Below are positions 24,833 through 26,376 of a stretch of 27,668 nt of DNA, one piece after another. Both the position numbers and the translations under genes were made by a program. Source of the DNA: a virus; UHGV virus genome UHGV-0347332; one strand, given 5' to 3'. The notes beneath the pieces are model-generated. The model was not told the origin of the DNA, did no database searches, and was given only the letters and a program-made list of their open reading frames with translations. Numbering within the stretch: position 1 is the first letter of the stretch; every line of letters starts with the position of its first letter.

Positions 24833-25882
24833 TCAAACGATTAAACCCTGAACTTCCCTGACTGTCTGCTCAAAACGTCCGGTCTCCAGCTCAACGCCAA
24901 TCGCACGACGCCCGAGCGCCAGTGCCGCTTTTACCGTTGAACCTGAGCCCATAAAAAAATCTGCAACCAGGTCACCCGGACGACTGCTTGCGCTGATTAT
25001 CTGCTGCAGCATTTCTGCCGGTTTTTCGCACGGATGTTTCCCGGGATAGAACTGCACCGGTTTATGTGTCCACACATCCGTGTACGGCACCTGCGCCGTC
25101 ACACCAAAATACCGCCGCAGATGCTTATATTCACTCTGCAGCTCCACATACTGCCGGTTCAGTGACGTATACGTATCCACCAGCTGGTGGTGGGGCTTTT
25201 CCAGTTCACCGCGCTGATGTTTCTCTTCTGCCACCCGGGCAAACAGCGACTGTAATTTCAGATAATCGCTTTCGTTCGGTAGCTGCCACTGACTGGCACT
25301 GAACCAGTGCGACACCATGTTTTTCTTTCCTGTGGCATCTGCAATCTGTTTTGCCGTTATCCCCAGGGCCGCGCGCGCATCACGAAAGTAAGAAATCAGC
25401 GGGGCCATCACATGCTGTTTCAGTGCACTGCCCTTCGCCGCATACCCGGCATCTTTCGGACGATACGGCCCCTGATAATGTTCCGCGAACAGAATGCGCT
25501 CTGTGGCGGGGAAATACGCCCGCAGGCTTTCCTTGTTGCATCCGTTCCAGCGTCCGGACGGCTTCGCCCAGATAATATGGTTCAGCACACTGAAGCGTTC
25601 ACGCATCATGATTTCGATATCAGATGCCAGGCGATGACCACAGAACAGGTAAAGACTTCCGGCAGGTTTCAGCACCCGCCAGAACTGCGCCAGACACTGG
25701 TCCAGCCACTTCAGGTAATCATCGTCGCCCTTCCACTGGTTATCCCAGCCCTCAGGCTTCACTTTAAAGTACGGCGGGTCCGTGACTATCAGGTCAACAG
25801 AATTTTCGGGTAACGACCGGATAAATTCCAGGCAGTCGGCGTTGATTAACTCACAACTGGATATTTTTACAGTATTAGCCAT
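24833..25882 (-). CDS. Orphan N6-adenine DNA methyltransferase
   Basis: 349 aa with DPPY motif near the N-terminus and FxGSGST AdoMet-binding motif near the C-terminus; no adjacent restriction enzyme gene. Confidence 0.9.
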   Translation of the reverse strand: MANTVKISSCELINADCLEFIRSLPENSVDLIVTDPPYFKVKPEGWDNQWKGDDDYLKWLDQCLAQFWRVLKPAGSLYLFCGHRLASDIEIMMRERFSVLNHIIWAKPSGRWNGCNKESLRAYFPATERILFAEHYQGPYRPKDAGYAAKGSALKQHVMAPLISYFRDARAALGITAKQIADATGKKNMVSHWFSASQWQLPNESDYLKLQSLFARVAEEKHQRGELEKPHHQLVDTYTSLNRQYVELQSEYKHLRRYFGVTAQVPYTDVWTHKPVQFYPGKHPCEKPAEMLQQIISASSRPGDLVADFFMGSGSTVKAALALGRRAIGVELETGRFEQTVREVQGLIV

Positions 25883-26020
25883 AGATCAATAAGCACTTCT
25901 CTGATAGGCTCATACCGCTTTTGCGCAAAGCAGATGGGCCTGAGGTTTGCTTGTGACCCCAACGCATGAGCAGATGGCTGGTGGGTGCCCCTAACACCCA
26001 CCAGCCGCCCATTTACCACA

Positions 26021-26047
26021 AATAAAAAAGCCTTCACTGCGGAAGGC
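26021..26047 (-). terminator. Intrinsic terminator at the end of the small HTH-like ORF
   Basis: GCCTTC/GAAGGC stem followed by TTTTTTATT on the minus strand; stop codon lies in the loop. Confidence 0.45.
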
Positions 26048-26231
26048 GTCTGTAACAACCGAACTGATAGTCTGCCAGACCCGCCATAACCAGCTGGGTC
26101 AGTATTAACTGGCAGCGTTCGCGTGAAAGGTAAGTATTCTGCGCAATCTCCCCGGCTGTCGCCGGTTCGGTGACGCTTAATTCATTAAACACCACTCTGG
26201 CGGTTTCTGTCATATCCTGCTGTTTCAGCAT
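26034..26231 (-). CDS. Hypothetical 65-aa protein, possibly winged-helix DNA-binding
   Basis: Start at internal ATG (MLKQQDMTETARVV…) with AAGGGA upstream; …TAGEIAQNTYLSRERCQLILTQLVMAGL… is HTH-like. Confidence 0.4.
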   Translation of the reverse strand: MLKQQDMTETARVVFNELSVTEPATAGEIAQNTYLSRERCQLILTQLVMAGLADYQFGCYRRLPQ

Positions 26232-26352
26232 GTCTTTTTCCCTTTTCCGGTTAACGTGACACACCAATAACTCTTGTCGAAAAAGCCAGCAAGCTGAAAG
26301 ACAGGTATTCACCGCCACCAGCGCGTTTACTGTACTGACGCGATTTCAGTCA

Positions 26353-26376
26353 TAAAAAACCCGCCAGGCGGCGGGG
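26353..26376 (-). terminator. tR'-like intrinsic terminator about 65 nt downstream of the late promoter
   Basis: CCCGCC(GCCT)GGCGGG hairpin followed by TTTTTT on the minus strand. Confidence 0.6.

What the first reader, a model, noticed from the sequence alone, without database searches (positions are those of the whole stretch)
24833..26376. Methyltransferase cassette is an insertion relative to the paralogous Q-PR'-tR'-tRNA copy
In the right-hand copy, the tR'-like terminator is followed within ~20 bp by the sequence that precedes tRNA-Ile. In the main copy, ~1.5 kb are inserted at exactly that point, right after the terminator T-run: a small HTH-like ORF with its own terminator and a 349-aa N6-adenine methyltransferase (DPPY and FxGSGST motifs) with no partner restriction enzyme. 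This delimits a discrete cargo module, plausibly anti-restriction or epigenetic, expressed from the late promoter.
Basis: partly seen in the sequence, partly recalled or inferred. Interest (0 to 1): 0.5.

Follow-up and report, generated by a model that had tools for sequence, protein, structure and literature searches.

The report
Prophage late-operon non-specific adenine methyltransferase cassette
The 1.5-kb block is real but ordinary: it carries a near-copy of M.EcoGII, the known phage enzyme that methylates every adenine to escape restriction, placed just behind the late terminator of an E. coli lambdoid prophage; the only new item is a conserved folded RNA leader in front of the gene.

Summary
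Observation confirmed. The Q-PR'-tR' stretch and the tRNA-Ile stretch lie 1.53 kb apart in the main copy (24823-26353) and abut in the right-hand copy. Breakpoints: just after the tR' T-run, and about 10 nt after the methyltransferase stop.

The 349-aa protein is a beta-class N6-adenine methyltransferase (Pfam PF01555, E 2e-44). [quoted passage not shown] No sequence motif is therefore expected. There is no restriction partner here or in about 90 related loci.

All four combinations of Q allele and cassette present or absent occur in complete E. coli genomes with the same breakpoints. It is a presence/absence polymorphism, and insertion cannot be told from deletion.

The right-hand "paralogue" is only a 405-bp inverted fragment inside a zig-zag rearrangement that breaks Q and was found in no other assembly. 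It may be a chimera.

Beyond the finding:
- The gene follows three different Q families across Enterobacterales.
- The small winged-helix ORF is optional (30 of 49 leader-bearing loci).
- A roughly 112-nt leader with strong covariation and mutually exclusive helices always precedes the gene and matches no Rfam family.

Verdict: a known cassette of low novelty, with a moderately interesting candidate regulatory RNA.

The parts
26458..27141 (-). Q antiterminator gene, main copy. It is 227 aa from an internal ATG. The first ~44 codons of the 273-aa RefSeq homologue are cut off at junction A (27144/27145).
   Evidence: Pfam PF03589 Antiterm, E 2.5e-40. Homology to the L001 Q ends at 27149.
26425..26452 (-). 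Candidate late promoter PR': TTGATT, 16-nt spacer, TGgTAAATT extended -10. Read by eye, not called by the scan.
   Evidence: Read from the sequence. The same hexamers are kept in the right copy and in the Q-side alignment. Below the scan's threshold. Inference.
26353..26375 (-). tR' intrinsic terminator (6 G-C pairs plus T-run). The cassette begins at its last T-run bases.
24823..26353 (-). The 1.53-kb cassette, present in the main copy and absent from the right-hand fragment and from many E. coli prophages.
26034..26231 (-). Small ORF of 65 aa: a putative winged-helix protein, PHROG 331, named 'TrmB family transcriptional regulator' by NCBI. An optional companion of the methyltransferase.
   Evidence: Upstream of the methyltransferase in 56 of 80 species-level loci and in 30 of 49 leader-bearing loci. 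The AlphaFold model has low confidence (pLDDT 62.8) and shows three helices.
26020..26047 (-). Hairpin plus T-run overlapping the small ORF's stop codon. It acts as a second terminator ahead of the methyltransferase. The hairpin is kept with compensatory changes in other genera, where the T-run is weaker.
25905..26016 (-). Conserved structured leader RNA, core 112 nt (the whole spacer is 25883-26033). Helices: P1 AUGGGC:GCUCAU, P1a a 12-bp hairpin, P2 UCUGCU:AGCAAA, P3 a 12-bp hairpin. A possible P4, GGUCAcAAGC:GCUUauUGAUC, reaches to 3 nt before the AUG.
   Evidence: Covariance model R1 scores 94.6 bits here and gives one hit per locus in 57 matches. Covariation. MFE -75.3 kcal/mol, z -4.1. 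No Rfam family reaches its threshold.
24833..25882 (-). 349-aa beta-class N6-adenine DNA methyltransferase of the M.EcoGI/M.EcoGII family (non-specific adenine methylation).
   Evidence: Pfam PF01555, E 2.4e-44. 329/350 identical to M.EcoGII as printed in PMC11551740 supplement 5. 100% identical to WP_000024331.1. PDB relatives only at E 1e-25.
24708..24783 (-). tRNA with CAT anticodon, annotated tRNA-Ile in RefSeq. Right flank of the cassette.
24531..24607 (-). tRNA-Arg (UCU).
27145..27549 (+). Right-hand 'copy': a 405-bp inverted fragment holding the last 70 codons of a Q allele, PR', tR' and the first 49 nt of tRNA-Ile with no cassette between them. It is 100% identical to intact loci such as that of EC958.
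27550..27668 (-). Exact second copy of the Q interior (identical to 26760-26878), joined bluntly to the truncated tRNA. Part of the zig-zag at the window end.
   Evidence: Neither junction was found in any other assembly searched.

Best explanation
The cassette is a known kind of phage cargo: an M.EcoGI/M.EcoGII-type non-specific N6-adenine methyltransferase gene, sitting as the first cargo of the Q-dependent late operon of a lambdoid prophage.

Proposed mechanism:
1. In the lysogen, transcripts from PR' stop at tR'. Any read-through meets a second terminator after the small ORF, so the toxic enzyme is not made.
2. After induction, Q-modified RNA polymerase reads through both terminators.
3. 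The enzyme is then made together with the lysis and head genes and methylates adenines in replicating phage DNA regardless of sequence context.
4. Packaged genomes enter the next host protected against adenine-sensitive Type I, II and III restriction.
5. A conserved structured 5' leader with mutually exclusive helices probably adds a post-transcriptional gate on translation.
6. The small winged-helix protein is an optional accessory of unknown role.

Status of each step:
- Shown here: the anatomy, the family identity, the presence/absence polymorphism and the RNA covariation.
- Taken from the literature on a 94% identical enzyme: non-specificity, silence in lysogens and toxicity.
- Inferred: Q-dependent expression, the safety role of the second terminator and the function of the leader.
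For: Identity. Pfam PF01555 at E 2.4e-44, with DPPY before FxGxG. 94% identity over the full 349 aa to M.EcoGII. M.EcoGI and M.EcoGII themselves share 333 of 349 residues.

Published properties. M.EcoGII methylates adenine in any context, is not expressed from the prophage, and harms cells when constitutive. Its authors propose that it overcomes host restriction. The ST131 homologue M.EcoMV gave no RT-PCR signal or methylation pattern in the lysogen.

Position. The cassette is on the same strand as Q and directly after tR', and no sigma-70-like site was found between tR' and the ATG. Two terminators precede the gene. Holin, lysozyme, Rz, terminase and capsid genes follow on the same strand.

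Conserved placement. The same gene follows Q proteins of three different Pfam families (PF03589, PF06323, PF06530) in Escherichia, Klebsiella, Salmonella and Buttiauxella, and lysis genes come next.

No restriction gene is adjacent in any locus read.

Leader. There is one sense-strand hit per locus in 772 kb searched. 95.9% of cells pair, against at most 43% when the partners are slid, and 14 pairs show compensatory change. On an alignment not fitted to the structure the figure is 81.5% against at most 53%, with 0 of 500 shuffles as high.
Against: - No expression or methylation data exist for this locus.
- The Q gene upstream is truncated by the junction at 27144/27145. If that junction is real, this prophage may be unable to turn the operon on by itself.
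- The PR' promoter was read by eye and falls below the scan's threshold.
- M.EcoGII also methylates RNA in vitro, so DNA protection need not be its only role.
- The identity figure rests on a machine-read supplementary table that contains a few reading errors.
- The function of the leader is untested, and helix P4 is almost invariant, so covariation can neither support nor refute it.
Confidence: 0.75

Rival explanations
1. Epigenetic regulator. The orphan methyltransferase is expressed in the lysogen and alters host or prophage gene expression, as Dam, CcrM or M.EcoGIII do.
For: Orphan methyltransferases often regulate genes (reviewed in papers listed). The invariant GATC just before the start codon hints at some link to methylation.
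Against: The family is silent in lysogens, by SMRT sequencing and by RT-PCR, and harmful when constitutive. Two terminators and no detectable promoter precede the gene. Non-specific methylation cannot mark particular sites.
Confidence: 0.05
2. RNA methyltransferase. The enzyme's biologically relevant substrate is RNA (rRNA, mRNA or phage transcripts), and it tunes translation or induction rather than protecting DNA.
For: M.EcoGII converts more than 32% of rA to m6A in a transcript in vitro. [quoted passage not shown] A small partner ORF lies upstream here.
Against: That enzyme belongs to a different family (MT-A70, DPPW motif) and lies in the early region. M.EcoGII acts less well on RNA than on duplex DNA. 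The small ORF is missing from 19 of 49 leader-bearing loci.
Confidence: 0.1
3. Dead cargo in a defective prophage. In this particular genome Q is broken, so the late operon, cassette included, can no longer be expressed. The cassette survives only by hitch-hiking.
For: The main Q lacks about 44 N-terminal codons. The second Q piece runs into an inverted tRNA fragment. Decayed versions of the cassette exist elsewhere: L003, L004, L005 and L007.
Against: The methyltransferase, small ORF and leader are intact and 100% identical to those of L001. The junctions were found in no other assembly and may be chimeric. A Q protein from another resident prophage with the same PR' could act in trans.
Confidence: 0.15
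4. The indel is an assembly artefact, not a biological polymorphism.
For: The right-hand copy lies in a zig-zag of blunt junctions that is unique to this window.
Against: The occupied and the empty arrangement each occur contiguously in about a thousand complete genomes, with the same breakpoints and with either Q allele.
Confidence: 0.02

Closest known systems
M.EcoGII / M.EcoGI of E. coli O104:H4 C227-11 (Murray et al. 2018, PMC5778455); M.EcoMV of ST131 EC958 (PMC4659465)
   Same: Same length (349 aa) and about 94% identity. Beta-class motif order. Carried by a prophage. No restriction partner.
   Different: About 20 substitutions, several of them in the predicted four-helix target-recognition region (residues 148-260). 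Activity was not measured for this allele. The papers read here do not mention the position behind Q/tR', the small ORF or the leader.
Phage Mu com-mom (a late, toxic adenine-modifying enzyme gated by a small upstream protein that opens an inhibitory mRNA hairpin). Recalled from my own knowledge; Mom and M.EcoGII are paired as 'silent in lysogens and toxic' in PMC12707154.
   Same: A late-expressed, toxic enzyme that modifies adenine with broad specificity. A small ORF lies immediately upstream. A structured leader may occlude the start region.
   Different: Mom is not a SAM methyltransferase. Com is a zinc-finger RNA binder, whereas the small ORF here looks like a winged helix with only two invariant cysteines. 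The small ORF is absent from 19 of 49 loci, so it cannot be an obligatory activator.
Late-operon cargo of lambdoid phages in the Q-to-lysis slot (stx genes, tRNAs ileZ/argN/argO); 'morons' in the sense of Hendrix and colleagues (my own knowledge)
   Same: Present in some phages and absent from otherwise syntenic ones. Placed between Q/tR' and the lysis genes. Expression would depend on Q read-through, as for stx (abstracts).
   Different: No promoter of its own was detected. It benefits the phage (anti-restriction) rather than the lysogen.
Controller (C) protein-regulated restriction-modification systems
   Same: A small helix-turn-helix gene lies just upstream of a methyltransferase gene.
   Different: There is no restriction gene. 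The small protein does not match the Xre-type HTH of C proteins; its only hit is a weak one to TrmB. It is dispensable in many loci.
YhdJ (M.EcoKII) and CcrM, chromosomal beta-class orphan adenine methyltransferases
   Same: Same Pfam family and motif order.
   Different: NCBIfam scores of 112.7 and 72.1 bits fall far below the cut-offs of 292 and 830. Those enzymes are site-specific.

Membership tests
M.EcoGI/M.EcoGII-type non-specific adenine methyltransferase | Beta-class architecture: DPPY motif near the N-terminus, central target-recognition region, FxGxG motif near the C-terminus | tested here: met
   DPPY at residues 35-38 and FMGSGST at 310-316. PF01555 covers residues 29-340.
M.EcoGI/M.EcoGII-type non-specific adenine methyltransferase | Close full-length sequence identity to the characterised enzyme | tested here: met
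   329/350 identical (94%) to M.EcoGII as printed in PMC11551740 supplement 5. M.EcoGI and M.EcoGII share 333 of 349 residues.
M.EcoGI/M.EcoGII-type non-specific adenine methyltransferase | Methylates adenine in any sequence context | not testable with these tools
   Needs an enzyme assay, or SMRT/nanopore sequencing of DNA exposed to the enzyme.
M.EcoGI/M.EcoGII-type non-specific adenine methyltransferase | Prophage-borne and silent in the lysogen | tested here: inconclusive
   Prophage location is shown. Silence is only inferred, from two upstream terminators and no detected promoter.
Type II restriction-modification system | A cognate restriction endonuclease gene next to the methyltransferase | tested here: not met
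   The neighbours are Q, the small ORF and tRNAs here, and Q and holins in other genera. PADLOC matches only methyltransferase models. The rest of the source genome is not visible.
Moron (autonomous extra gene in a phage operon) | Present or absent between otherwise syntenic phages at a fixed point | tested here: met
Moron (autonomous extra gene in a phage operon) | Has its own promoter and terminator | tested here: not met
   No promoter-like site lies between tR' and the methyltransferase. There is a terminator after the small ORF only, and none between the methyltransferase and the tRNA.
Mu com-mom-type translational gate | A small upstream protein that is always present and binds the leader | tested here: not met
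   The small ORF is absent from 19 of 49 leader-bearing loci. It has no zinc-finger cysteine pattern.
Mu com-mom-type translational gate | A leader structure that occludes the translation start and has an alternative open fold | tested here: inconclusive
   P4 is predicted in the window's minimum-energy fold. P2 and P4 exclude each other in the predicted ensembles of 46 orthologues. P2 covaries, but P4 is nearly invariant.
Any Rfam RNA family (for the leader) | Score at or above the family's gathering threshold | tested here: not met
   The best match is P26 on the opposite strand, at 22.9 bits against a threshold of 36.

The most novel reading that the evidence does not exclude
The roughly 112-nt leader that always precedes M.EcoGII-family genes is an undescribed cis-regulatory RNA: a two-state translational switch that keeps this toxic, non-specific enzyme off until late in infection. 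The proposed states are P1 with P4, which occludes the start region, and P2, which frees it. The switch might be flipped by the small winged-helix protein, by RNase III cutting the long P1/P1a duplex, by translation from the invariant upstream AUG, or by the enzyme binding its own mRNA.
Probability: 0.4. Interest if true: 0.55.

Novelty: already known. Interest (0 to 1): 0.3.

Why it matters
The cassette itself adds little. It is another copy of a characterised anti-restriction enzyme that is common in E. coli prophages, including Stx phages.

Two points have some value:
1. Its fixed place directly behind tR', plus a second terminator, offers a concrete, testable explanation for the published observation that M.EcoGII is silent in lysogens although it is toxic when expressed.
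2. M.EcoGII is widely used as a reagent for adenine-methylation footprinting of chromatin and RNA, yet nothing I read describes how the phage controls it. A conserved leader RNA with covariation-supported alternative helices is a tractable candidate for that control and could become a new RNA family.

For Stx phages the cassette lies between Q and stx. Its two terminators and its leader are therefore part of the transcript that carries the toxin genes.

Tried and rejected
- Identity with the Stx-prophage '16S rRNA methyltransferase' M.EcoPA8orf6770P: rejected. That enzyme is MT-A70 type with a DPPW motif and lies in the early region.
- YhdJ or CcrM equivalog: rejected on NCBIfam cut-offs.
- Mobile-element signature at the cassette ends: none. 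Only AT is shared.
- Own promoter: none found.
- Known RNA family for the leader: none.
- Conserved leader peptide from the invariant AUG: rejected as a conserved protein. By my own reading of the sequences, the frame closes after 7 codons in most genera, stays open for about 47 codons in the window, and changes with the stem sequences.
- Fold of the small ORF: the AlphaFold model was too poor (pLDDT 62.8) to search with. A profile search of PDB sequences found nothing below E 0.2, and NCBIfam found nothing.
- Polarity of the indel: not decidable. All four combinations of Q allele and cassette state exist.
- Corroboration of the right-end junctions: none of 5,426 complete E. coli genomes holds a contiguous match spanning either junction. 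Junction A is absent from IMG/VR and the JGI metagenomes, and junction B is absent from IMG/VR.
- A paper on the pR' region of Stx phages (PMC6266700) does not mention the methyltransferase.
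Full report
**1. What the window is**

The minus strand of the window carries the late region of an E. coli-type lambdoid prophage. In order it holds:
- a Q antiterminator (26458..27141, Pfam PF03589);
- a short PR'-tR' region;
- the block in question;
- two tRNAs (24708..24783 and 24531..24607);
- a P21-type holin, lysozyme, Rz, terminase, capsid and tape-measure genes.

The stretch 24400-27148 is 98.4% identical to loci in many complete E. coli genomes. RefSeq annotates these as antitermination protein, hypothetical protein, DNA-methyltransferase, tRNA-Ile and tRNA-Arg.

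**2.

The repeat search gives two inverted pairs: 26345-26670 against 27145-27470 (82%), and 24735-24822 against 27462-27549 (97%). They abut in the right copy and lie 1.52 kb apart in the main copy.

The three-way alignment puts the breakpoints right after the tR' T-run (26353/26354) and 10 nt after the methyltransferase stop (24822/24823). Only AT is shared at the two ends.

Terminator-like sites lie at 26375..26360 (tR'), at 26047..26030 (overlapping the small ORF's stop) and at 27438..27457 in the right copy. No sigma-70-like site was found between tR' and the methyltransferase start.

The DPPY and FMGSGST motifs are present. The profile match to PF01555 has E 2.4e-44.

**3. The 'paralogous copy' is only a fragment in an odd setting**

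- Positions 27145-27549 are 100% identical to positions 4001-4405 of the EC958 locus L002: the end of Q, PR', tR' and the first 49 nt of tRNA-Ile.
- Positions 27550-27668 are 100% identical to the reverse complement of L002 3911-3793, and also to window 26760-26878.
- Both junctions are blunt, with at most 1 bp of microhomology.

The path therefore zig-zags through Q. It leaves the main Q without its first ~44 codons relative to the 273-aa homologue.

None of 5,426 complete E. coli genomes holds a contiguous match spanning either junction. Junction A is also absent from IMG/VR and from the JGI metagenomes, and junction B is absent from IMG/VR. I cannot tell a real rearrangement from a chimeric assembly.

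This does not weaken the indel. The fragment's arrangement, Q-tR'-tRNA-Ile with nothing between, is intact in more than a thousand genomes.

**4. It is a presence/absence polymorphism, not a datable insertion**

I built two artificial queries.
- The main-type Q/PR'/tR' joined directly to the tRNA flank is found contiguous in real genomes. The best hit covers 100% at 97.8% identity in one piece, and 1,239 genomes reach at least 80% coverage.
- The right-copy-type Q/PR'/tR' joined to the start of the cassette is also found contiguous. The best hit covers 100% at 99.0% identity, and 1,064 genomes reach at least 80% coverage.

All four combinations therefore exist with the same breakpoints. This is what recombination through the homologous flanks would produce.

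Decay products exist as well:
- PhiR5_1 keeps the small ORF and 40 nt of the spacer.
- phiSTEC1575-Stx2k keeps the small ORF and the first hairpin, followed by a 237-aa protein annotated 'helix-turn-helix domain-containing', whose C-terminus looks AraC-like to my eye (not profile-tested).
- PhiR49_2 keeps only the last 94 codons of the methyltransferase.
- A Klebsiella locus keeps the small ORF, the leader and 45 codons.

**5. What the enzyme is**

A literature search led to M.EcoGII, the non-specific adenine methyltransferase of an E. coli O104:H4 prophage. According to PMC5778455 it is:
- 349 aa long and beta-class;
- 333/349 identical to its neighbour M.EcoGI;
- active on adenine in any context in double-stranded DNA, single-stranded DNA and RNA;
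- not expressed in the lysogen;
- harmful when constitutive.

Its sequence, as printed in a supplement of PMC11551740, is 329/350 identical to the window's protein. A few of the differences are machine-reading errors.

The ST131 homologue M.EcoMV gave no signal in the lysogen, and homologues in O111 strains gave none either. A recent review lists M.EcoGII with Mu Mom as silent in lysogens and toxic on artificial expression.

The suggested methylome experiment should therefore show m6A everywhere in phage DNA, not a motif.

The enzyme is not the MT-A70 rRNA methyltransferase of Stx phage PA8. It is not a YhdJ or CcrM equivalog either.

**6. Distribution and context**

- The cassette occurs in 40 phage records, among them Stx2a, Stx2c and Stx2d phages, phiP27 and 1720a-02. 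In the records whose annotation I read it lies just downstream of Q.
- The protein family has 2,929 members at E <= 1e-10.
- Eighty species-level loci span Escherichia to Xenorhabdus, Photorhabdus, Yersinia and Hafnia.
- In Klebsiella, Salmonella and Buttiauxella the gene follows Q proteins of other Pfam families (PF06323, PF06530) and precedes holin genes. There are no tRNAs and no nuclease gene.

So 'first cargo after Q' is a conserved position, reached behind three different kinds of Q.

**7. The small ORF**

It is 65 aa from an ATG preceded by AAGGGA. It belongs to PHROG 331. NCBI names its relatives 'TrmB family transcriptional regulator', but Pfam's TrmB match is below threshold.

It lies 100-200 nt upstream of the methyltransferase in 56 of 80 loci, at 35-97% identity. 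However, 19 of 49 leader-bearing loci lack it. In those the leader follows either a tR'-like terminator or a remnant of the ORF.

It is thus a frequent but optional companion. Its fold could not be confirmed (pLDDT 62.8; nothing found in PDB sequences).

**8. The spacer is a conserved structured RNA**

The 151 nt between the small ORF and the methyltransferase keep their length (155-159 nt when measured from 25 nt upstream of the invariant AATGGGCG motif to the ATG, in 46 distinct sequences) and much of their sequence across genera.

Covariation on a plain MAFFT alignment:
- 81.5% of cells pair, against at most 53% when the partners are slid.
- Ten pairs change on both sides.
- 0 of 500 shuffles score as high.

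A covariance model then finds exactly one hit per locus, always on the sense strand just 5' of the gene: 57 hits in 772 kb, and in the window only 25905..26016. On the alignment fitted to that model, 95.9% of cells pair against at most 43%, and 14 pairs show compensatory change.

Frequent G-U pairs show that the folded strand is the mRNA strand.

Helix P2 was not part of the model, yet it covaries: one pair reads C-G 29, A-U 10, U-A 7 and U-G 5, with none unpaired. P2 shares three nucleotides with the 3' strand of P1, so the two cannot form together.

A further helix, P4, would pair the invariant GGUCAcAAGC with the 11 nt that end 3 nt before the AUG. It overlaps P2.
- It appears in the window's minimum-energy fold (-75.3 kcal/mol, z -4.1).
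- In the predicted ensembles of 46 orthologues, P4 and P2 exclude each other. The start region is about 30% unpaired with P4 and 65-85% unpaired with P2.
- P4 hardly varies, so covariation cannot test it.

There is no Shine-Dalgarno sequence before the AUG. No Rfam family reaches its threshold.

I read this leader as a candidate translational gate. That reading is inference.

**9. Verdict**

The thing itself is already known: a copy of the M.EcoGI/GII anti-restriction methyltransferase in its usual prophage slot. The caveats are the unresolvable polarity of the indel and the dubious right-hand end of the window. The one element that may be new is the leader RNA.

Noticed in passing
window 25883-26033 (- strand); covariance-model hit 25905..26016: Conserved, covarying leader RNA of about 112 nt in front of the methyltransferase. 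It has mutually exclusive helices (P1 against P2, P2 against a possible P4 at the start codon). It is found once per locus in 57 matches across Enterobacterales and matches no Rfam family.
   Followed up: yes
window 27142-27668: Zig-zag of blunt junctions. Q is cut at 27144/27145. Then comes a 405-bp inverted fragment of another prophage allele, then an exact repeat of the Q interior (identical to 26760-26878). It was found in no other assembly searched. It is either a real rearrangement that breaks Q or a chimeric contig end.
   Followed up: partly
window 25867-26058 (- strand): In this allele an ORF opens at the invariant AUG of the leader (or at an upstream TTG) and ends 4-6 nt after the methyltransferase AUG, an arrangement typical of translational coupling. 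In most genera the same AUG gives only a 7-codon frame (MGGWWVL), so the long frame is not conserved.
   Followed up: partly
window 23645-23834 (- strand): Strong match to the Rfam sRNA family STnc100 (132 bits, E 4.5e-30), lying between the tRNAs and the lysis genes.
   Followed up: no
window 23284-23619 (+ strand): 111-aa ORF on the strand opposite to the late operon. It matches PHROG 4407, and the syntenic gene in RefSeq loci is annotated anti-adapter protein IraM.
   Followed up: no
window 26360-26430 (- strand) and 27380-27457 (+ strand): The PR'-to-tR' interval would give a short terminated transcript of about 65 nt, the counterpart of lambda 6S RNA and of StxS in Stx phages. It is conserved between the two alleles.
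   Followed up: no
L003 (PhiR5_1), L004 (phiSTEC1575-Stx2k), L005 (PhiR49_2), L007 (Klebsiella): Independent decay or replacement variants of the cassette: small ORF only; small ORF plus first hairpin followed by a 237-aa protein annotated 'helix-turn-helix domain-containing' (AraC-like C-terminus by eye) ahead of stx2k; a C-terminal methyltransferase remnant; and small ORF plus leader plus a 45-codon remnant.
   Followed up: partly
L018, L030, L039, L040 (genome contigs): Enterobacterial-type methyltransferase loci (76-97% identical) sit in assemblies labelled Geobacteraceae, Vagococcus, Chryseobacterium and Collinsella. Contamination or mis-binning of those records is the likely cause.
   Followed up: no
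L064-L095 (Xenorhabdus and Photorhabdus loci): These genera keep the small ORF (37-48% identical) and the methyltransferase (about 66% identical). Their spacer is shorter, retains only a P1a-like hairpin and is not detected by the covariance model.
   Followed up: no
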